Positions 8,031-51,354 of a DNA stretch of 64,000 nt are shown here, piece after piece. Both the position numbers and the translations under genes were made by a program. The stretch lies in NCBI GenBank assembly GCA_052327205.1, contig CM126209.1, positions 61,876,001 through 61,940,000 on the forward strand. Direction: 5' to 3'. The notes under the pieces were generated by a model. That model worked only from the letters and a program-made list of their open reading frames with translations. It was not told the DNA's origin and did not search any database. The first letter of the stretch is position 1, and each line of letters opens with the position of its first letter. This DNA is from Somniosus microcephalus. Its lineage: Eukaryota.

Positions 8031-8689
8031 TCCGATCTTACCCTGCGGCAGTTTTACATCCAAGGCAGCTTCGTCCTCAGAACGGGCGTCAAGAGGAGGC
8101 ATCCGCCCTCATCATCCTGCTGAGCACAATCGCACGGGAGGAATCGAGAACCCGGGTTAAAAAGAAAAATTCTGACCACGAAGCCCTCCATCAACGACAG
8201 GCAGTGATCATCCCTTCTACCACGGTGGTGGGTAAGCCGATCAGCGACACAAGCAGAAAGTCGGCCGCGTTGGCTGTGGAGTAGGGGAGGGAAAACGGAG
8301 GAATAAGGGCGGAGAACTCTACCACAGCCGGTAAAAAGGGCCGGGCTGCAATCGAGGCCGAGGCGCGCAGCGACTGGGGCAGCTTAAGGCACGAGAGCCG
8401 CGGAGAACTCAAACGCAGCCGGTGTAAAGGACCGGGCTGCAAGGCAAAGCAGCGTCGGGGAATTGAGAACCGCTGGGGAGGCGAGAATGGCAGCAGCAAG
8501 GCAATCGCCATTGCAGCCAGCGGGGGAAGAAGGCAAACGCGGGAATCCGCCATTGTAGTCGGCGGGGGAAGAAGACGAGCGCGGGAAAGACCACCAAGCG
8601 CGGGAAGCCGCCATTTTAGTAGGCGGGGGAAGAAGACAAGCGCGGGAAGCCACCATTTTGAGAAAGAAAAATTTAAAAAACTTGCAAGG

Positions 8690-9658
8690 ATGCCTAAACA
8701 TGGGAACATTAATACCTTTGATAGCGATATCGAAGATTGGACCACGTATGTAGAACGCATGGAAGTTTATTGTAAAGCAAATAAGGTACCAGATGATGAG
8801 AAAGCACTAACCTTATTAAGCTCAATGGGTGCGAAGACATACGGGCTATTGAAGCACCTTCTATCACCAGATAAACCGGCGGATCAGACTTTCGCGAATA
8901 TTGTTACTGTCCTGAAAAATCATTTAAACCCCACGCCGCTGATGATAGCGGAACGATTTAAATTTTACAGAAGAACGCAGCTGAAAGACGAAAGCAACGC
9001 TGAATTTTTAACTGAACTGCGTAAGCTATCGAAGTACTGTCAGTTTGGAACAGGACTAGCAGATGCGCTGAGAGATAAATTTGTGTGTGGATTGTTAAAA
9101 GGAACACAAAAGCGACTGCTCGAGGAGAATGATCTTACGCTTGATAAAGCGGTCACTATTGCAGCATCGCAAGAAGCCGCAGCGAGAGGCACGGCGGAAA
9201 TGCAGCTACGGTCACCGGAACTCAGCACCAATCAAATGGTCTTGGGTACAGTAAAATGTTATCGTTGTGGAAAGACAACGCACGATCAGAACCAGTGCTG
9301 GTTCAAAAATCAGGAATGCAGAAAATGTGGCAGGCTTGGTCACATAGCTAAAGTATGCCGGTCAGGAAAGAAGACCAGCAACAAAAAGTCACCGCAGGAA
9401 AAGTACAGAAAGGTACACAAGGTGACAGAGAACAGTTCGAACGAACAGAAGTCAAATTCAGACTCCAGCAGTAATGAACTGGGTAGTCTAAGAGTACACA
9501 ATGTTGGTAAGGAAGCAGACCTCCAAATAATTTGGGTCACACTTCAGATAGCAGGAGTCCAAGTGAAGATGGAATTGGACACTGGATCGGCATTGACGGT
9601 CATGAATAAGCAAGATTACAAAAGGTTATTCCCCTACGGGATACGGAGATTGTATTGA
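8690..9658 (+). CDS. Gypsy Gag with two CCHC zinc knuckles plus the start of the aspartic protease
   Basis: CYRCGKTTHDQNQC, CRKCGRLGHIAKVC, LRDKFVCGL and MELDTGS motifs. Confidence 0.9.
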   Translation: MPKHGNINTFDSDIEDWTTYVERMEVYCKANKVPDDEKALTLLSSMGAKTYGLLKHLLSPDKPADQTFANIVTVLKNHLNPTPLMIAERFKFYRRTQLKDESNAEFLTELRKLSKYCQFGTGLADALRDKFVCGLLKGTQKRLLEENDLTLDKAVTIAASQEAAARGTAEMQLRSPELSTNQMVLGTVKCYRCGKTTHDQNQCWFKNQECRKCGRLGHIAKVCRSGKKTSNKKSPQEKYRKVHKVTENSSNEQKSNSDSSSNELGSLRVHNVGKEADLQIIWVTLQIAGVQVKMELDTGSALTVMNKQDYKRLFPYGIRRLY

Positions 9659-12622
9659 AAACATACACGGGGCAAAGAGTATACCCCATCGGGAAGATAG
9701 AGGTAAAGGTGGTCCACAAGGGCAAAGAAAGCCGAGGAATGGACTTATATGTGCTACCTGAGGGAGGTCCACCACTACTGGGACGGGAGTGGATTAGGAA
9801 AATAAATATGGACTGGCATCCCTTAAAAGCACCAACGGTAGATTCCGGTAAAAAAGATGTCAAACCTAAACGATTGTCCAGAATATTGGACGATGCTAAA
9901 GAGGTGTTCCAACAGGGACTGGGAACACTGAGAGGAATTACGGCAAACATCAAGGTTGAAGAACATGCAAACCCGAAATTTTTCAAAGCCAGACCGGTAC
10001 CTTATGCGATACGGCCGGCTGTGGAAGCGGAGCTGGAAGGGCTAGAACGTTCAGGAGTACTGTCTAAGGTAGACTGGAGTGAGTGGGCTACGCCCATTGT
10101 TCCCGTCATGAAGCGTTCATCGAGCAACAAGCCGGGGGAACCGGGGAAGGTGCGCATCTGTGGAGATTTCAAGATCACTGTTAATCCGGTGCTTCACACG
10201 GTGCAGTATCCGCTTCCGCGGATTGAGGATATCTTCGCTTCGTTGTCTGGCGGGAAACACTTCAAGATAGACCTGGCGCAGGCGTACTTACAGATGGAAG
10301 TTGAGGAAGAGTCACACCAGTATCTCACGATCAACACGCATTAGAGGCTTGTACCGGTATAATAGACTGGTTTTTGGAGTGGCATCGGCTCCAGCAATTT
10401 GGCAGAGGGCCATGGAGCAGGTATTACAGGGAATTCCAGGCACACAATGTTACCTGGACGATATTCTGATTACAGGAGAGGGTGACGAGGAACACCTTGC
10501 AAATTTGGAACTGGTGCTCACCAGATTGAAAGAATATGGACTTCGAGTTAATCGCCAGAAATGAGAGTTCTTTCAGAAGCGGATCTCGTACTGTGGTCAT
10601 GTCATTGACCAGGAGGGGCTTCCTAAGTCTCCTGACAAGATCGAAGCTGTTGTGAAGGCTCCCGCTCCGGATAATGTATCCCAGTTGAGGTCGTTCCTAG
10701 GGTTGATGAACTATTACCATAAGTTTCTGCCAAATTTATCCACGGTGCTGCACCCGCTGAATGCTCTTTTGCAGAAGGGAGTACCATGGAAGTGGAGCGA
10801 GGACTGTAAGAGGGCCTTTCGCAAAAGCAAGGCATTGATCACCTCAGAGGAAGTGTTGGCTCACTTCAACCCAACGCTGCCTATTCGTTTGGCTTGTGAT
10901 GCTTCTCCATATGGTATTGGGGCAGTACTCTCACACAAGTTGCCAAATGGCCTGGAGAGGCCAGTCGCGTTCGCATCCAGATCATTGACCTCCGCGGAGC
11001 GCAACGCAACTATGCTCAGATAGATAGGGAGGCTCTCAGCCTTGGGAGTAAAGAAGTTTAATCATTACCTGCAGGGCCAAAAGTTTATGCTTCTGACAGA
11101 CCACCAGCCATTGGTATCCATTTTTAACCCTAAGAAGGGTGTTTCGGTGATGACAGCACAGAGACTCCAGAGATGGTCCCTTTTCCTAAGGGCACATCAA
11201 TATCAGATTGAATTCAAAGGTACAAAGCAGCATGGTAATGCTGATGGGCTGTCGCGCCTGCCACTACCTACAGAGGAGGAGGCACCGACGGTTGACCCTG
11301 TTGAGTTATTTCACTCGACCATCGTCGAATGTTTACCAGTCACCAATGCAAGTATTGAAAGAGAAACCAGGAACGACCCGACACTGTCCTGGGTCTACGA
11401 AGTGACAGTGAAGGGATGGCCAGCACATGGTGATCCACTGTTACCGGCATTCTCAGCAAGACGAGAACAGCTGCCCGTCTGTCAAGGAACATTGATGTAT
11501 GGAACAAGGGTGATTATTCCTCCTAAGTTAAGAGAGAGAGAGTTCTAACTGCATGAAGGTCATCTGGGGGGAGTCAAGATGAAAAGCCTTGCTAGGGCTT
11601 ATGTGTGGTGGCCGGGTATCGACCAACAGATAGAGGAGCTGACGAAAAGCTGCTCAGGGTGCCAAAAAGTGCAAAATGCACCTCCGATTGCACCGCTGCA
11701 TCCATGGGAATGGCCTTCAACCCCATGGCAATGTGTACATATTGACTTTGCTGGTCCATTCATGGACTCCATGTTTTTAATTGCGGTGGACGCACATTCT
11801 AAATGGCCAGAAGTGATTAAGATGACTACCAGTACCTCGGAAAAGACGATCGCGGTGCTAAGAACGATATTTGCAAGAAATGGATTGCCAGAACAAACAT
11901 GTTCAGACAACGGACCGCAGTCCATGTCAGAAGAATTCCAGAAATTCATGAAGAAGAATGGGGTGAAACATTATACCTCTGCCCCATATCATCCGGCTAC
12001 AAACGGGTTGGCCGAGAGATTTGTACAAACGTTCAAAAAAGCGATAAAGGCCATGAGCGAAGATCAGATTCCACTACAACACAAGGTGGACAAATTCCTA
12101 CTGGCATATCGAAACGCCACTCATGCAGTGACAAACCAAAGTCCTGCCATGATGTTCTATAACAGGAGGTTGCGGTCCAGGTTGGACTTGTTAAAACCAA
12201 ATGTGCGGAGGGAAGTTGAAAACAAACAGTTCCAGCATATAAATAACAAGGCCACTCGGAGTTTCGAAATAGGACAACCAGTGTTAGCCCGGGACTATAA
12301 AAACGAGAAATGGCAATCTGGAACAATTCGGGCCAGACAAGGACCCCTGATGTACACGGTAGATATTGGGGAAAATGTAATACGGCGTCATGCTGACCAA
12401 CTGGTAGAATCGAGAACAAGGGTCGAACCCATGGTTACGGCAGAGACAACCGTGGAAGAAGTTAGTGAACCTGAAGCATCTACCTCAGAAGTGAATGTAC
12501 CTGATGATGTCCAATCCATAAGAGACCAACTAGCTGAGTCACCCCAGCAACGAGAATCAGAGACCCCTGAAAGGCGTTATCCAACTCGAATCAGGAGGCC
12601 TCCTCAGAGACTGAATCTTTGA
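9655..12622 (+). pseudogene. Gypsy Pol (RT, RNase H, integrase) broken by frameshifts and a stop codon
   Basis: SEWATPIVPV, RICGDFK, YLDD, LACDASPYGIGAVL, TDHQPL, HEGH..CSGC, HIDFAGP, SDNGPQ and NGLAERFV motifs spread over five ORF pieces; TGA at 10562. Confidence 0.92.
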
Positions 12623-37203: not shown

Positions 37204-37381
37204 CATCAAACACTGCTCGACTGTATTGAGTAGTAGAAGCTAAAGGCCTGCATGTTTTGTCAAATTTGTTGCCATAATTGCCAATGCTGACTTCAAACTG
37301 GATGGCGTCTCCAATTTCTCGCTGCATTGTTGCTGCATAAAAAACAGCAGAAAGACTATACTTGCGCCGGCGTTGATATTT
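37204..37381 (-). CDS. MYOF: Myoferlin exon ([19 protein letters not shown]...[31 protein letters not shown])
   Basis: cag/gtgagt splice sites. Confidence 0.95.
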
Positions 37382-38795
37382 CTGGAATAGGAACAGGAGG
37401 ATTTGGATTAACTTCACCCAAGACCCACAAATAATTTAAAACTTCTGAAAAAGATAGTATAAATGATGAAATGCAGTATCACTTACAAAACCCACATCTA
37501 TTATTCAAATGGGTGTCTCCAGCCCCAAAAATATAGCAGCCCCTACCCCAGTTTGCCACCAAATTGTGCAGCAGTGGGACAAAAACAGGAAGCTTTAATA
37601 GTTTTGTATGTCTGTTACGTGGATTCAGCTGCAGCATGACTGCAAGGAGTTTTGATTTCTGGATTATATATTCCAAGTTGTCATCATGTTATTGAATGAT
37701 GCGTTCTATGGTGAACCTACACATGCACCCTAAAAGGCAAAATCTTTCTTCACAAGGCCAGCGAAATTGTCCTGCAAGATAGCCACGAAATTATAGCAAT
37801 TTTCTCCCCCACTAGATTAAACCACCAGCTTTGCATTTCCTTAACCTTGTAGTAATAATCAAGTAAGGAAATTGAGAGAGCACACTCATTTTGCACAGAC
37901 TCCAACTTATCAGGGCTAAATTAGGAGGATTATAAATGGGAGTAAAAGGAGAAAACCAGTTTCTGAACAGGATAATGGAGTGTTACATGACTTAAATGAT
38001 TAAGGAACCTACACAGAGGTTTGGGGGGGGGGGGGGGGTGGTGGTGAAGAGGCAGCCGTGAAAGAGAAAGGTGGAGAGAAGGAAGCTATATTAGACTGGT
38101 TGTACGATATTCAGGCAATACTTGAGCAGGTTACCTTGGAAATAGTGATCACAATATGAAGTATAATGTCAGACTTGCACTATTGAAAGAGAGGAGTCGC
38201 ACATCAACCATCAATTTTGCTAAAGTGGATTTTGATGGAATGAGGGGACTGGGATGAAAAGATAAATGGATCACTTTCAAGAATACACTATTGTCAACAC
38301 CACTTGGAAAGCAGTAGAGAAAAAAACACAACGTGGGCATCAAGGCAAGTACTGCAAGGACAAAAAAGCCTTCCTCAAGTACAAGAAGTCATGCACAGAC
38401 CAGAGAACAAGGATGAGGTTAGGTTCCATCACATGCAGGTGGTTAGTGTAACTGCCCGAAGCTGGAAAAAATCTGCATTTGTGGATTTATATTGGACTAG
38501 CTGGAGTGCCCGGCGGTGCCAAGGGTTTTTTGAGGGCATGTTGTTGTGGGAGAAGGGGGGGGGGGGGGGGGGGGGGGGAGGGGAAAGAGGGAGAAGAAAA
38601 AAAAAAAAGGAACAAAAAAAAGAGCGAGCGAGCACTGGATTGAGTTCGGGATTAGCCTGGAGAGGAGGGGGGGGGGGAAGGAGCGCCTCAGGCCTGGCCT
38701 GATCGACCCCTGCGAAGGAAGGAAAGAAGAAGGCGAGCTCTCCCTCCCTGTCCCACCCCCTCACTCTTTCCCTCCCCCTTTCTCCTCTCCCTCCA

Positions 38796-39045
38796 CCTCC
38801 GCGGATCAGTGCCTCAGGGCCGGTGCGCGGCCTAGCACGTGAGGCCCGGCTGGACTCACGTTAGCTCTCTCCCTCCCTCCCTCGCTCCTCTCCTCTGTGG
38901 ATCAGCGCCTCAGCCGGCCGGTGCACAACCTAGTGCGTGAGGCCTGGCCGGACTCTCCCTCCCTCCCCCTCCGCGGATCAGCGCCTCAGAGCCGGCCGGA
39001 GCACGACCTAGCGCGTGAGGCCCGGCGGGACTCACCTTAGCTCAT
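38796..39045. repeat. Three GC-rich tandem units of ~75-95 bp
   Basis: ggatcagcgcctcag..ccgg..cctagcgcgtgaggcccgg..ggactc repeated three times. Confidence 0.8.
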
Positions 39046-39625
39046 GTCGCGCTCCGGGCCGACGTTGACGCGCACACTGACTCCCACCTCACCCACTTTT
39101 ACTAAGATGGCGGCGATGGCTACCCTCGGCACAGTCCCGCACCGCCAGCCTTTACCAAGATGGCGGCGATCGCGGGGCGGGACGGGCGGTGCCTAGCTCG
39201 GGCGTGGCTGGCGAGGAGAGGTCGAGGCTTCGAGGCCGGAGGCCTGCAGGCAGCTCATCCACCGCCGAGGGGGGTTTTTGAGGGGGGGGGGGGAAAGCCC
39301 GAGTCCCCTTTGGAAAAGGATTTTTTTCCCCTTTAAAACCAATTTTTTTTTTTGCTGCAAATCTATATTTCAAAAGAAACACGCAGAAAGTGGGAAAAAG
39401 AAATGAAGTTAGGAATCAAGATGGTGGCCACTCAAAGTCAGAAGGATTAGGCCCGCCCACACATGCAATGTGACGCAGCGATTGGTCAACCATCAGGTCA
39501 CTCAACGCTATCCCTGTAGGATGGCCCACCCCCACACGCAATGAACCTCCCCCCGGTGACGCACCGATTGGCATCAGGTTAATCACCTGTACGATTGGTC
39601 AACCATCACGTCACTCAACGCAAAG
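39030..39625 (-). promoter_or_regulatory. CpG-island promoter-like region with a candidate first exon
   Basis: Repeated GATTGG (CCAAT) and GTGACGCA (CRE-like) motifs at 39470-39620; two YY1-type AAGATGGCGGCG motifs (~39104, ~39158); donor-like AAG|GTGAGT at ~39030-39038 on the minus strand. Confidence 0.5.
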
Positions 39626-39839
39626 GAGCGGAATGTTGCCGTTTTTTGAACCTTTTTTGTATACGGTCCGAACAATTTGTCTGACCAAAAAGTAAATACG
39701 CCTGAGAGTCCCCTAATGATAAGCTTTCTTTTGATATAACATGTGTAGGTACGCTCTATAACTTTTGATTGGTTATTCTCTGCAAACCTGTGACTTTTTA
39801 AACAGTTAACTGAACACTTAAGCGTGCTGTACAACTGAC

Positions 39840-39953
39840 CTGAACCACCAAAACATCATCGCTAGGTATGTCCTCCAACTTCTTCTCTGGATTACCATCA
39901 AGTTTGGTGATTAGTTCAACCAGTAGTCTACCACGATATGCAACTCCCTCACC
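39840..39953 (-). CDS. MYOF: Myoferlin exon ([38 protein letters not shown])
   Basis: tag/gtcagt splice sites, 114 nt. Confidence 0.95.
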
Positions 39954-42727
39954 CTAAAAGCAAAACATTTTTTATTAGCACCAGTTTAAAAAAACTCTTC
40001 AGCTTCAAATTCTAAGCAATCTAGAAATTCACAACCAAGTTGATTAGTATTATAAATTAATTTTTCCTCCATCTCCTGATCAACAGGATGATAGGCAGTC
40101 TGCTCTCTGGCCTCAGTCAGTATTTAGAGGAATTGTCAGTGGTTTCTGCTCGGACACCTGGAGTGCATCAAGGTTGCCTGCTTGTTGTAAGGCAATGCAG
40201 GCACTGATTCACGTTTCAAGGCTGCAGGCCGAGCAGTTTGATTATGTAGTTGCTGCAAGTAGTGATGCTTAAACTGTTCAGTGATTTGCAGCTGGATACA
40301 ACATGGTTGAAAGAAACATCTGCGCCATCTCATCTATAACCAGTTACGTTCCTGATGCAGATCAGAACTTTCAAGTACCTCACTCAATACAAGTGCCTGA
40401 CATATGTCTGGATTGGTTAGAAAGCTTCAACAGAATGCAGGAAAATTAGCAAAATGTGCTTGAAAGTCACCATCAGAATGCTCAAGTGTGGTTCCTGGTG
40501 ATCAAAGTGCCAACAGATCCAATCTATGGCCACTTGAATCAAATTCACCTTCCCACCATAAATCAAACGAGTCACAGGCTGCATCCAGGATTTTAAAACT
40601 TTTATCGCTCCTGGCCTGAAGATGTTGATTTCTGCAGTGGTACAGCTCTGCAGGTGATAGTCATCTTGAGACGACACCATTGAAGCAGACAGGTCATGCC
40701 GTCAGCCTAGGGAGCATTTGCAAGCTGGTTGAGCCTGGGGGTGGGGCGTGGGCAAGAGGTGGTGAAGTCTTCAGACATACAGCCACACTTCCCACCCAGC
40801 ATGGTGCACTGGACAATCAGGCCCAGGAACCCTGGCTGATTTCTCTTGCGAAGTCCAGGGTCCCAGAGGCCAACTGGATTAGAGAAGGAAAAGCCAACGA
40901 TCTGACCAAGACCAGCTAAGTCAAAGACCGAGCCCCTTCTACCGTCGGACTCAGTTACAAGTTTCATTTACCAGCTGGGTTAACTCCGTAGTACTTATTC
41001 TTGCATTTCTAAATCAGCAAAACAGTAACTTTTGACCATCACTTAGCCATTTGTGGCATTGGGTAGAAATGCTCACGGCGGGGTCAAGGGAACAGGAGGT
41101 GGGTCTCGGACAAGATGAGCTCAGGAAAAAAAAAAAATAGGAGAAAAACAAACTCGAAAAAGACACAGGTTCATGGCTGGGTAAGGGACTAGCAGAGTGG
41201 CTTTGATCTTAGTGACAAAGAAGCCCATTACTTCCTCACACTTGGAAGAGTGTGAGGAGGGGCCAGGGGAGAGGAGTTTAAGGAGATGGTTGGTAGTGGG
41301 GAAGAGTTAGAGGGTTATCTTGGCTCTCCAGGCTGATCCTGGAGTAGTGGGCAGTTTTGGCAGAAGAAAGTGAGGCCAGATATTGCTCATTGTGGTCCAA
41401 CCAGATTTGGTGAATGATGGCTAAACCAGCTGTATGTGTCAGATATGCTCAGGTCTGCAGCCCTTAAACTTGAGGGACTGAAGGTGATGCATACCAGGAT
41501 GAATTGACAAGGATGGGAGAGTAAAGGTTTTGTTGGGGACAAGGGCATCAAAGGGTGGAATGGTTAAGCAGATCAGTGGCTGTGGTGAATGGAGGGCCAA
41601 AAGCATCCCTCGGCTCGGACTTATACTTGCGCTATTAAAATGTATTAAAAGAAACAGAAAATACAGAGCAGGTCTCAGTGGGGATAAAGTTCTAAAGAAC
41701 GCAGGAAAAATTGCAACAAAACACCAAAAGAATGACTATTTCCTGCTGTGTGTGAAATTCTGGTTGCAACCTGGGATACAAGGAGCATTCAAGAGCTGGG
41801 GACATGGCCAGTTTTATGGGCAGAGATTAATCTGGGCCATAAAAGATAGAGGATACTTTGGTATATTGTAGTTACGCACGTAACTCACTTGCACTCAATT
41901 TCTGATCTTAAGATATGTAATTGGTTTGGGTCCAGATTACGAGGCCGGAATTTTAAGGAGAAAGGCAGGTGGGGGCTCCGAGGCGGTCGGGAAGCCAGGT
42001 TTCCCACAAGCCCTGCCGACTTTAACGAAGATAGTGGCCGGCCTCAGCATCATTGCTTGGGGGGGGGGGGGGGGGGGGGGTCCTGGTTGCAGGGGATTGG
42101 TTAGCTCGGGACCCTGGATCCAGGATCCCAAGTGTAAAGGCACTTGCTGTAACTGCTGGGTTTCACAAAGTGTAAAACCCATCCACATGCAGTTAAAAAC
42201 AAAAAAAAAGGTTTAAAAAGTCTTCCATTCTTATTGTAATATTTAAATTGACATCTTGCTCCCTGGGAGCAAGTTGGTTGCCCGCCCGCGTTAAAACCAG
42301 AACTGGGTGGGTTGGAGGCAGGTTCCGGTCGAGAATCTGATTTTTAACAATTTAACTACATCCATGCTCCAAACCTACCTGTTTTTTTTTTTAGGTCAAA
42401 ATCCCCCCCACCCCACCCGCCAAGCGTCTGTGCAAATATGAAGACAACGCCAGGCCTACCAGTACAACAACATTAACGGCATGTGACAATTAGCAAGGTT
42501 TGCTGCAAAAATATATCCCACATGGCTATTTTTTCCATTGCATTATTTCAATAAGACTGCCATCAATGATGCCAAACAATGTGTGTCGATACACTTTCAT
42601 GGTCAACCACCTACCAATTGAACTCAGACACATGGCAATGATTTTCTTCGTACAAGGGATGAGATATATTTACATTTTGTGGCTAATTCGGATAGTGAGT
42701 ACCAAACAGATGGTATTTCTAACTAAC

Positions 42728-47962: not shown

Positions 47963-50588
47963 CTAGAAAGAGATGATGCCGTTTAGAAAACAGATGTCCT
48001 GCCTATACTTCTTCCAGTAACCAGCTAACAAAAACCATAGGTGGTGCTTGGTTTCAGGGGGTGGAGATGCAAATTTGATGCTAGAGTAAAAAATATCCTG
48101 AATGCCAGAAAATTCTATTAATTTGGCAACAGTTACTCCATACACTTCAAAATGGATGCTACTAAACAAAGGCTCATTAGTATGACTAGGTACCTTACCC
48201 TTGAAGTTGAAGGTGCTGTAATGGCTAAAATAAAAATGCAACATGTTTACAATGCTTTATATATTAGTTAACAAGATAATGTATCAGTTGGAAAGTAAAA
48301 ATGCAAGTTTAACCATAGACACCATATTGTAAAATAATACAATTTTTTGAAGGGGTGCTCTACAGTAACTTTTTTTCTGTACAACAATTTGTTGCTAAAC
48401 CTTAGGCAAAAGCAAATCTTCTGATCTTTCCATTTAAATAGCAGGCCATAAACAAAAGCCTGTATTATGGGAGCATTGACCAGTCCATCAGCAGGTCATC
48501 ATACAGTGTTTGATGGCAAGGTACTAACAAGACTACCAAGCTTTGCAAAGTACATTATTTCTTTTAAAAAAAAGAAAAAAGTTTTGGAAAGGTTGCTTGA
48601 TGGAGGTACATTGGAAAAATAAATCTGCATCACAATGTCTGGACAACTTAATGGTCTTAAAGAGCAGCATGTGAAATGCTCCATTCCTCATTTTCTTCTA
48701 AAACCAGTAAGAAAGTGGAGTTTTATGAAGTACAGAATTCTTGCAAACATGGTGGATCATTGGGCCTGAAGGAATGCCTGCAGTCCTGCACTTCATTTAT
48801 TATGCAAGACAGATTTCAAATGCAGCTCGAGGCATTTATGAATTACCTCCTGTTAACAATACTACAGTTGTAGAAATGAAATGGCTTTTTCAAACCAAGG
48901 GGAGGAGGAGGAGAGAAGAGGGCTGGAAAAAAAAAAAAAAAAGGAGGAACTGAAGCCATCACAGCCTACTTGTTACTCCTCCAGTATATTATTCCCCTTT
49001 TTACTCAGTATTAAGTGNNNNNNNNNNNNNNNNNNNNNNNNNNNNNNNNNNNNNNNNNNNNNNNNNNNNNNNNNNNNNNNNNNNNNNNNNNNNNNNNNNN
49101 NNNNNNNNNNNNNNNNNNNNNNNNNNNNNNNNNNNNNNNNNNNNNNNNNNNNNNNNNNNNNNNNNNNNNNNNNNNNNNNNNNNNNNNNNNNNNNNNNNNN
49201 NNNNNNNNNNNNNNNNNNNNNNNNNNNNNNNNNNNNNNNNNNNNNNNNNNNNNNNNNNNNNNNNNNNNNNNNNNNNNNNNNNNNNNNNNNNNNNNNNNNN
49301 NNNNNNNNNNNNNNNNNNNNNNNNNNNNNNNNNNNNNNNNNNNNNNNNNNNNNNNNNNNNNNNNNNNNNNNNNNNNNNNNNNNNNNNNNNNNNNNNNNNN
49401 NNNNNNNNNNNNNNNNNNNNNNNNNNNNNNNNNNNNNNNNNNNNNNNNNNNNNNNNNNNNNNNNNNNNNNNNNNNNNNNNNNNNNNNNNNNNNNNNNNNN
49501 NNNNNNNNNNNNNNNNNCCTGCAGCTTCTGAGGGAGTCTAGAAAGAGATGATGCCGTTTAGAAAACAGATGTCCTGCCTATACTTCTTCCAGTAACCAGC
49601 TAACAAAAACCATAGGTGGTGCTTGGTTTCAGGGGGTGGAGATGCAAATTTGATGCTAGAGTAAAAAATATCCTGAATGCCAGAAAATTCTATTAATTTG
49701 GCAAACAGTTACTCCATACACTTCAAAATGGATGCTACTAAACAAAGGCTCATTAGTATGACTAGGTACCTTACCCTTGAAGTTGAAGGTGCTGTAATGG
49801 CTAAAATAAAAATGCAACATGTTTACAATGCTTTATATATTAGTTAACAAGATAATGTATCAGTTGGAAAGTAAAAATGCAAGTTTAACCATAGACACCA
49901 TATTGTAAAATAATACAATTTTTTGAAGGGGTGCTCTACAGTAACTTTTTTTCTGTACAACAATTTGTTGCTAAATCTTAGGCAAAAGCAAATCTTCTGA
50001 TCTTTCCATTTAAATAGCAGGCCATAAACAAAAGCCTGTATTATGGGAGCATTGACCAGTCCATCAGCAGGTCATCATACAGTGTTTGATGGCAAGGTAC
50101 TAACAAGACTACCAAGCTTTGCAAAGTACATTATTTCTTTTAAAAAAAAGAAAAAGTTTTGGAAAGGTTGCTTGATGGAGGTACATTGAAAAATAAATCT
50201 GCATCACAATGTCTGGACAACTTAATGGTCTTAAAGAGCAGCATGTGAAATGCTCCATTCCTCATTTTCTTCTAAAACCAGTAAGAAAGTGGAGTTTTAT
50301 GAAGTACAGAATTCTTGCAAACATGGTGGATCATTGGGCTGAAGGAATGCCTGCAGTCCTGCACTTCATTTATTATGCAAGACAGATTTCAAATGCAGCT
50401 CGAGGCATTTATGAATTACCTCCTGTTAACAATACTACAGTTGTAGAAATGAAATGGCTTTTTCAAACCAAGGGGAGGAGGAGGAGGAGAGAAGAGGGCT
50501 GGAAAAAACAGAAAGGAGGAACTGAAGCCATCACAGCCTACTTGTTACTCCTCCAGTATATTATTCCCCTTTTTACTCAGATTAAGTG
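47943..50588. other. 500-N assembly gap (49018-49517) flanked by a near-identical ~1.07 kb direct duplication (47943-49017 and 49518-50588)
   Basis: Sequence after the gap restarts at cctgcagcttctgagggagtctag and differs mostly by small indels. Confidence 0.92.
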
Positions 50589-51354
50589 TCCTGTACATGC
50601 GTCTGTGCAGTGAAGGGTGACCTGCTAATAACCTGCTGCAGCACTTTTAAACCAGGGTCCAGCTTTTGGAAAAAAGGTAGCAAAACAATTGGAACAAGAC
50701 ATTGACTGAAAATTCACTTGTGCTACAGCAAAGAACAGGACAGGCAGCAATAGTCTGCTTTAGCAACCTACTGCGATGATCATTTTGCTGCTACAGTATA
50801 TTCTTCACTACCTTCATATAACAACGGATTTCCTAAGAAAAACTGGCTATGCTTAATAAGTGCAGTCCTTTCACAAAATCACAATCTGAAACATTTGGAA
50901 TTCCTGGAATATACAATAATCAGCTTCATGTCAGGAACTACATGGCACACAAGCAGTCACTTGGTAAATTATTTTTGCATACTCCACAAAAGGCCTATTG
51001 TGCCATTATAGAATATTCAGTAAGAGAATGCAGATTGGCATCTAACCAAACAATGCATATAGCATTCAATAGTGGTTGCACACAGCAACCACGTGCATTT
51101 TCAGGCACATCTCGCTTGAGCACCCAAGAAATCCAACATGGCTGAATGGTGGTTTGTATAAATTCTAACATATTACTATCGCTCCAGGTGTGGTCATCAT
51201 TCATCAGGAACATCACCACCACATTTGGCCCCCCTGAACACACACTGGATTAGAGACTAGAGCACACTATCTGCTATCCAGAACCAACAGTGGAGGTTTC
51301 CAGCTGTAACTAGTCCAGAATACCAGTACATTGAGAGAAAAAAAAAGCACCAAC

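What the first reader, a model, noticed from the sequence alone, without database searches (positions are those of the whole stretch)
38497..39780. Helitron-like element carrying an apparent captured CpG-island promoter and first exon inside MYOF
Seen directly: an abrupt CpG-rich island in an AT-rich intron, ending on the minus strand in hairpin + CTAG|T. Reading the minus strand 5' to 3' it has repeated CCAAT and CRE-like modules (39620-39470), a GC box, two YY1-type GCCGCCATCTT motifs, a short exon-like stretch ending ATGAGCTAAG|GTGAGT (~39036), and then three tandem GC-rich units that partly repeat the donor region. Established: Helitrons end in hairpin-CTRR, insert before T without a TSD, and in bats have captured and dispersed promoters and first exons. 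Inference: a housekeeping-type promoter and 5' exon were transduced here in the MYOF sense orientation. Splicing to the exon at 37381 could give an N-terminally truncated myoferlin lacking C2A-C2C. I could not fix the 5' TC end or identify the donor gene.
Basis: partly seen in the sequence, partly recalled or inferred. Interest (0 to 1): 0.7.

Follow-up and report, generated by a model that had tools for sequence, protein, structure and literature searches.

The report
Truncated Helitron carrying its own promoter
A broken copy of a common rolling-circle jumping gene sits in an intron of the myoferlin gene; its promoter-like stretch matches the front end of the transposon's own transposase gene, so it was likely not taken from a host gene, is unlikely to make a shortened myoferlin, and is ordinary transposon anatomy.

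Summary
The element is real: a 1,275-bp non-autonomous Helitron1 copy (38497-39771, minus strand) in MYOF sense orientation, 68 bp inside a 2,458-bp intron. Its 3' end has 8,947 exact matches in the genome and its splice-donor motif 310. The capture reading is not supported. The terminus, CCAAT/CRE/GC-box block, first donor, second-exon block, YY1 doublet, second donor and GC unit all have counterparts in the 5' leaders of RepHel-coding Helitrons of the same genome. The element also ends in a relic of the RepHel acceptor and start codon fused to the terminal palindrome, so it is best read as an internal-deletion derivative. This copy is decayed: 5' TC end gone, native first donor destroyed. 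The ATG before the second donor is a private mutation followed by a stop after two codons. RNA showed only the normal MYOF junction, at too little depth to exclude a rare chimeric one. No host parent was found, though searches were swamped by copies. The scan has read this family the same way elsewhere. Side finding: a sister subfamily amplified a spliced RPL36 retrocopy.

The parts
38497..39771 (-). 5'-truncated non-autonomous Helitron1 copy (1,275 bp)
   Evidence: Family matches end at query 7 and 1282 of 38490-39860; ends aligned over 30 loci; the 347-bp left flank is single-copy
39622..39771 (-). Subterminal 5' region; the family's TC/TATATA/TCTG-repeat terminus upstream of it is missing in this copy
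   Evidence: matches 22 of 23 RepHel leaders at 70-88%
39432..39621 (-). CCAAT/CRE-like/GC-box module; likely the RepHel promoter, ending in a very short first exon
   Evidence: Matches 21 of 23 RepHel leaders; GC box followed by a donor in 12 of 23. Promoter activity is inferred from motifs and position
39428..39446 (-). Native first splice donor of the leader, destroyed in this copy by a small deletion and substitution
   Evidence: L001 lacks the GAG|GTGAGT that most other rows show; RNA reads from other copies restore the missing letters (table 4)
39182..39274 (-). Block homologous to the leader's second non-coding exon; the branch point and pyrimidine tract seen in relatives are absent here
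   Evidence: matches 7 of 23 RepHel leaders
39104..39167 (-). YY1-type motif doublet (motif name recalled)
   Evidence: present in RepHel leaders L046, L052, L099, L100 (77-82%) and in L126 across an N gap
39030..39045 (-). Second splice-donor motif with a private ATG (C>A at 39045) followed by TAA
   Evidence: 310 exact genomic matches of the donor pattern; 45 of 56 identical to the RepHel leader of L139, 0 of 500 shuffles as good
38772..39035 (-). Three tandem GC-rich units that repeat the sequence after the donor
   Evidence: related repeated units in the leader of L139
38524..38548 (-). Relic of the RepHel splice acceptor and start codon (ATG at 38539; acceptor AG changed to AA)
   Evidence: 21 of 25 identical to the RepHel start of L048; the intermediate L084 keeps the T-rich tract
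38497..38523 (-). 3' terminus: short palindrome and CTAG, followed by T
   Evidence: Last 24 nt identical to the end of RepHel element L066; 8,947 exact pattern matches, 0 for the reversed control
39840..39953 (-). MYOF exon upstream of the element (114 nt, phase 0)
   Evidence: spliced to 37381 with GT-AG ends in RNA
37204..37381 (-). MYOF exon downstream of the element (myoferlin 618-676); first in-frame ATG at 37327

Best explanation
This is a 5'-truncated copy of a non-autonomous Helitron1 family in a MYOF intron, and its promoter-like cassette is likely the inherited 5' leader of the family's own RepHel transposase gene, not a captured host promoter. Shown: multi-copy family, shared termini, module-by-module homology to RepHel leaders, and a RepHel start relic next to the 3' end. 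Inferred mechanism: an autonomous element lost almost all of its ORF by an internal deletion that joined the first ~16 nt of RepHel to the terminal palindrome. The derivative kept the promoter and spliced leader, duplicated donor and GC units inside it, and was spread in trans by RepHel rolling-circle transposition to several hundred sites. One copy landed before a T in an A/T-rich spot of the MYOF intron and lost its 5' end and first donor. It probably cannot move any more, is probably methylated like its family, and is probably removed with the intron.
For: Family: 40 of 40 scored candidates match in each (7,572 and 2,680 first-look candidates); 310 exact donor-2 matches; 8,947 terminus matches. 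Partner: 150 of 150 scored PF14214 candidates pass the cut-off (407 candidates); Rep and PIF1 domains confirmed; L066 has the same last 24 nt, and L070 and L073 end in the same ~55 nt directly after the RepHel 3' region. Leaders: of 62 stretches near RepHel hits, 37 had a recognisable start and 23 of these a 5' module upstream with no 3' end between; of the 23, 22 match the 5' region, 21 the CCAAT block, 11 the first-intron block, 7 the exon-2 block, 5 the YY1 block and 1 the GC unit, and 12 show GC box plus donor. The second donor region aligns to L139's leader, gap-free to its RepHel start (45 of 56; 0 of 500 shuffles). RepHel start relic: 21 of 25. Family-level splicing: 8 reads of run X5 join the first donor to the exon-2 acceptor of a sister subfamily (table 5c), and that junction has 0 genomic matches. 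Decay: CpG transitions at 232 of 2,479 CpG positions against 74 of 4,512 other C/G positions in 29 other copies (p 5e-49). Reads over the element carry family letters, not this copy's (39222: 103 of 105 in X5, 83 of 85 in X6; 39622: 62 of 62 and 259 of 261).
Against: No single RepHel element in the sample is collinear with the whole copy; the modules are spread over several subfamilies, so the family is a mosaic. 14 of 37 stretches with a start showed no 5' module and 25 of 62 gave no start with my pattern. Four of the 23 leaders hold a 500-N gap, and in L126 the YY1 match may belong to a stacked element; three of the four firm YY1 leaders are one subfamily. About 25 nt before the second donor (39091-39063) matched no leader. 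Two apparent full matches (L118, L135) proved to be stacked non-autonomous copies and were dropped. This copy's own CpG excess is not significant (6 of 86 vs 5 of 158, p 0.20). These Helitrons do take up host sequence (RPL36), so an old capture into the autonomous lineage is possible. The splice evidence is 8 reads in one run.
Confidence: 0.85

Rival explanations
1. The YY1 doublet, second donor and GC units were captured long ago from a host CpG-island gene into an autonomous Helitron's leader, and were then inherited by this non-autonomous family.
For: These blocks are in only a minority of RepHel leaders (YY1 5 of 23, GC unit 1 of 23). Leaders of sister subfamilies carry different GC-rich inserts and one carries a proven host RPL36 cDNA. 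Capture of promoters and 5' ends is documented in bats and Xenopus (PMC4224331, PMC12001565; passages).
Against: No parent among the 40 scored hits. The RPL36 promoter does not match. The second donor differs from the family's first donor at 1 of 17 positions in some copies, which fits internal duplication. The YY1 module is already present in diverged subfamilies (75-82%).
Confidence: 0.12
2. Whatever its origin, this copy works as an internal promoter of MYOF. It would start near 39450, splice from 39036 to 37381 and translate from the Met at 37327, giving a myoferlin without its N-terminal C2 domains, as HelibatN3 does for bat genes.
For: Sense orientation, intact CCAAT/CRE/GC motifs and a consensus donor; an in-frame ATG 54 nt into the next exon; precedent for N-terminally truncated transcripts from intronic Helitrons (PMC4778049 passages); this copy's CpG loss is not significant on its own.
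Against: No 39036-37381 joint among the 15 of 18 joints shown; the only MYOF joint is the normal 39840-37381 (2 reads, 1 start, in X6; one contig in X1). Three out-of-frame ATGs would precede the in-frame one. Reads on the element come from other copies. The test has little power: MYOF exon depth was 0 in X5 and under 2 in X6.
Confidence: 0.04
3. The region is a native, single-copy internal promoter of MYOF.
For: CpG-island composition and promoter motifs.
Against: Hundreds of dispersed copies with sharp shared ends, while the 3'-side flank is single-copy.
Confidence: 0.01

Closest known systems
Canonical non-autonomous Helitrons (Helitron1), e.g. bat HelibatN elements moved by Helraiser (PMC4778049; passages)
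   Same: Family has 5' TC and CTAG 3' ends, a subterminal palindrome, A|T junctions, no terminal inverted repeats, and RepHel partners with the same ends.
   Different: This copy lacks the 5' end. The host is not a mammal. The family keeps a long spliced leader and a relic of the RepHel start.
HelibatN3 carrying the NUBPL promoter, first exon and donor (PMC4224331, PMC4778049; passages)
   Same: A promoter-plus-donor cassette spread to hundreds of sites; a sense intronic copy could in principle trap downstream exons.
   Different: HelibatN3 has an identified host parent, six host codons before the donor, and shown chimeric transcripts. Here the cassette maps to the transposon's own leader, the ATG is a private mutation followed by a stop, and no chimeric junction was seen.
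Heli1Xen1 of Xenopus laevis (PMC12001565; passages)
   Same: Non-mammalian vertebrate Helitron1 family with autonomous and non-autonomous members, a presumed promoter at the 5' end of the autonomous copy, and captured host fragments.
   Different: Sequence relatedness was not tested. The passages seen describe no spliced leader, and 'shark' and 'Chondrichthyes' do not occur in the main text; supplements were not read.
Helitron-amplified nested retrogenes, e.g. RPLP0 in HelibatN424 (PMC4224331; passages)
   Same: Applies to the sister subfamily, not to this copy: a ribosomal-protein mRNA copy inside a Helitron, amplified with it.
   Different: Here it is RPL36, at 40 or more sites, and it also rides in RepHel-coding elements.

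Membership tests
Helitron1, non-autonomous (family level) | 5' TC terminus | tested here: met
   20 of 38 5' ends examined show TC directly before the TATATA tract, 18 of the 20 preceded by A; the rest are stacked on another CTAG, eroded or unresolved
Intact Helitron1 copy (this copy) | 5' TC terminus present in this copy | tested here: not met
   The copy begins about 40-110 bp inside the family 5' end; it is filed as a truncated copy of the family, not as an intact element
Helitron1, non-autonomous (family level) | 3' CTRR terminus followed by T | tested here: met
   CTAG|T here; T follows in 38 of 38 distinct unstacked flanks; 8,947 exact terminus matches
Helitron1, non-autonomous (family level) | Subterminal hairpin | tested here: inconclusive
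   A short conserved palindrome with a 3-nt loop is visible, but this copy's last 44 nt fold at z -0.33
Helitron1, non-autonomous (family level) | Insertion between A and T without target-site duplication | tested here: inconclusive
   A|TC and CTAG|T junctions are seen in other copies; this copy's 5' junction is lost and no empty allele was available
Helitron1, non-autonomous (family level) | No terminal inverted repeats | tested here: met
   None of 13 inverted pairs in 37500-41000 joins the two ends
Helitron1, non-autonomous (family level) | RepHel-coding partner with the same ends | tested here: met
Captured host promoter and first exon (HelibatN3 type) | An identifiable host parent gene | tested here: inconclusive
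   None among 40 scored hits in each; RPL36 promoter ruled out; searches are swamped by copies
Captured host promoter and first exon (HelibatN3 type) | Cassette foreign to the autonomous element | tested here: not met
   Modules found in RepHel leaders
Captured host promoter and first exon (HelibatN3 type) | Host start codon and open frame up to the donor | tested here: not met
   ATG in 1 of 30 aligned copies, stop after 2 codons
Captured host promoter and first exon (HelibatN3 type) | Chimeric transcript with the host gene | tested here: inconclusive
   No such joint listed; MYOF depth 0 to 1.8 in the two raw RNA runs
Captured host promoter and first exon (HelibatN3 type) | Open, unmethylated chromatin and a mapped start site | not testable with these tools
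   No CAGE, ATAC or methylation data on hand

The most novel reading that the evidence does not exclude
A Helitron clade of this (probably cartilaginous-fish) genome uses its spliced transposase leader as a cargo bay and has scattered hundreds of ready-made promoter-plus-donor cassettes into introns. This copy serves as an internal MYOF promoter that makes a myoferlin starting at the Met in the 37381 exon, a non-mammalian case of Helitron exon trapping driven by the transposon's own promoter.
Probability: 0.05. Interest if true: 0.6.

Novelty: new member of a known kind. Interest (0 to 1): 0.2.

Why it matters
As it stands this is ordinary: a decayed copy of an abundant transposon family that the scan has already met several times in this genome. 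It is a useful caution that a promoter-like cassette inside a non-autonomous Helitron need not be captured host DNA; it should first be compared with the leaders of the autonomous partners. The family map (two-exon leader, acceptor next to the RepHel ATG, deletion point) and the RPL36-carrying sister subfamily are small additions. Four searches that paired Helitron or rolling-circle terms with shark or cartilaginous-fish terms listed no paper whose title describes such elements in these fishes; I saw listings only, apart from one passage search. It would matter if copies were shown to drive truncated host transcripts.

Tried and rejected
Parent-gene search by DNA similarity: only family copies among the 40 scored, so no verdict. 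RPL36 promoter as parent of the YY1 doublet: no match better than E 0.07 in about 34 kb around the gene. L118 and L135 as RepHel leaders holding the whole cassette: rejected, they are stacked non-autonomous copies. A first strict pattern for the RepHel start found none of the real starts and was replaced. Terminal hairpin as a significant fold: not supported. Paralogous empty site through a repeat in the flank: the flank is single-copy, so no test. Run search: no RNA holder listed; two raw RNA runs were added by species label and laid. DNA-run contigs of X2 and X3 reach 29 and 20 letters into the element at its two junctions, under the tool's 31-letter bar, so they only suggest that the same truncated insertion is in those samples. 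The broad lay was dominated by poly-G artefacts and other repeats. Literature searches gave the bat and Xenopus precedents; the dogfish genome paper names Helitrons only in its reference list. A look-up of earlier notes by sequence gave one unrelated bacterial note. The host lineage was not tested; 'cartilaginous fish' comes from earlier scan notes and my recall of repeat content.

Full report
Observation. The described features are in the sequence. 38497-39780 has GC 57.9% and CpG o/e 0.74, against 42.3% and 0.35 for the window. On the minus strand it shows three CCAAT boxes (39598, 39571, 39485), CRE-like half sites, a GC box (39458), two YY1-type motifs (39167, 39114; 0.03 expected), a consensus donor at 39036/39035, three GC-rich units and CTAG|T at 38497. 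The motif labels are recalled, not tested. The downstream exon is myoferlin 618-676. The terminal hairpin is weak (z -0.33).

A repeat family. The window is G000:C8:61876001-61940000 in a 6.45-Gb genome. All 40 scored candidates matched in each, and matches stop sharply at window 38496 and 39771. Exact patterns give 8,947 copies of the 3' terminus and 310 of the second donor, with 0 for the reversed controls. So the subfamily has several hundred copies within a much larger group. Other copies begin TC-TATATA-(TCTG)n: 20 of 38 ends examined, 18 of them after an A. T follows CTAG in 38 of 38 distinct unstacked flanks, and some copies are stacked head to tail. This copy lacks the 5' terminus. Its 3'-side flank is single-copy. 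It differs from the majority of 29 other copies at 21 of 356 core positions (two subfamilies are mixed, so this overstates its age).

The autonomous partners. PF14214 gave 407 candidates, and all 150 scored pass the cut-off. Rep and PIF1 domains were confirmed. L066 ends in the same last 24 nt as this copy; L070 and L073 end in the same ~55 nt directly after their RepHel 3' region. I examined 62 stretches near RepHel hits: 37 had a recognisable start, and 23 of these had the family's 5' module upstream with no 3' end between. Of the 23, 22 match the 5' region, 21 the CCAAT block, 11 the first-intron block, 7 the exon-2 block, 5 the YY1 block and 1 the GC unit; 12 show a GC box followed by a donor. 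Four of the 23 contain a 500-N gap. L118 and L135 first looked like full matches but are stacked non-autonomous copies and were dropped. The second donor and the start of the GC unit align to the leader of L139, which runs without a gap to a frameshifted RepHel start: 45 of 56 identical, 0 of 500 shuffles as good. About 25 nt (39091-39063) remain unassigned.

Anatomy of the leader. In the RepHel elements the order is: terminus, CCAAT/CRE boxes, GC box, a very short exon and donor, an intron of about 190 bp ending in branch point, pyrimidine tract and AG, a second exon, a long low-complexity intron, and an acceptor one base before the RepHel ATG. Eight reads of run X5 join the first donor to that acceptor as found in a sister subfamily (table 5c), and the junction has 0 matches in the genome. 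This is modest evidence, from one run, that the leader is spliced. The last 55 nt of the element hold a relic of the RepHel acceptor and start: 21 of 25 identical to L048, with L084 as an intermediate that keeps the T-rich tract. This points to an internal deletion that joined the start of the ORF to the terminus; the order of events is inferred, since some RepHel elements also end in this relic.

State of this copy. The first donor is destroyed and the exon-2 pyrimidine tract is absent. The ATG before the second donor is a C>A change seen in 1 of 30 aligned copies and reads Met-Ser-stop. A hypothetical splice from 39036 to 37381 would put three out-of-frame ATGs ahead of the first in-frame one at 37327. 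Across 29 other copies CpG positions mutate at 9.4% against 1.6% for other C/G (232 of 2,479 vs 74 of 4,512), which implies germline methylation of the family. This copy (6 of 86 vs 5 of 158) differs neither from chance (p 0.20) nor from the family rate (p 0.57).

RNA. About 24% and 31% of two raw RNA runs and one contig set were laid. The only MYOF joint listed is the normal 39840>37381: 2 reads from 1 start in X6, and one contig of depth 319 in X1, which has another organism label and is RNA only by guess. No joint from 39036 is among the 15 of 18 shown. MYOF depth was 0 in X5 and under 2 in X6, so this cannot exclude a minor chimeric form. Reads on the element lie on both strands and carry family letters at this copy's private sites, so they come from other copies.

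Comparison. The family meets the Helitron1 tests for termini, lack of inverted repeats and a RepHel partner; hairpin and target site are inconclusive for this copy, and the copy itself is truncated. It works like HelibatN3 in spreading a promoter-plus-donor cassette (PMC4224331, PMC4778049; passages seen) but fails two membership features: the cassette is not foreign to the autonomous element, and there is no host start codon with an open frame. Heli1Xen1 (PMC12001565; passages; supplements not read) is a non-mammalian precedent with a presumed 5' promoter. Eight earlier scan notes on Helitrons in this genome were shown (of 12 that fit); several reach the same reading. I had stated mine before seeing them, and they are not independent support.

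Side finding. A sister subfamily with the same YY1 doublet carries a spliced, 5'-truncated RPL36 copy with an A-rich tail in its leader: 40 of 40 scored hits at 93-97% over 419-471 nt, 60 PF01158 matches among 70 candidates, pieces and the parent included, and a parent with introns on C13 at 98%. It occurs upstream of RepHel-type frames (L046, L099, L100) and in short non-autonomous versions (L083, L084). So these Helitrons do carry host sequence, which keeps old capture of the YY1 block open, but the RPL36 promoter is not its source.

Verdict. Real element, known kind; capture not supported; truncated myoferlin unlikely and poorly tested. Interest 0.2.

Noticed in passing
L046:5293-5640 (G000:C9:118078.8 kb), L082-L093, L099-L101; parent L095:2407-9542: A sister Helitron subfamily, RepHel-coding and non-autonomous, carries a spliced, 5'-truncated RPL36 mRNA copy with an A-rich tail in its leader; at least 40 copies at 93-97%, many with the frame still open but no upstream Met seen; the parent gene with introns is 98% identical. 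A word look-up found no earlier scan note on it.
   Followed up: partly
L005, L006, L007, L011, L012, L013, L046, L118, L135: Family members are often stacked head to tail, including non-autonomous copies directly upstream of RepHel elements; unstacked 3' flanks are T followed by an A/T-rich run that resembles the element's own 5' end.
   Followed up: partly
L050, L139, L135, L081, L059 leaders: Sister subfamilies hold different GC-rich inserts with repeated donor motifs and, in L081 and L135, X-box-like palindromes (label recalled); some may be captured host fragments.
   Followed up: no
G000: Many RepHel hits lie in open frames over 1,000 aa, some inflated by N gaps or simple repeats; no fully intact element was verified.
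   Followed up: no
L066:2850-3400 (minus-strand numbering), L070, L081: The 3' region after the RepHel stop contains what looks like a degenerate second copy of part of the helicase sequence.
   Followed up: no
window 8285-12622 (+): A CpG-rich LTR retrotransposon (gag/pol-like frames, Gypsy-like by recall) in another MYOF intron.
   Followed up: no
window about 48900-50700: A 500-N assembly gap; contigs of DNA runs X2 and X3 suggest that the sequence on its two sides is duplicated or misjoined (table 8).
   Followed up: no
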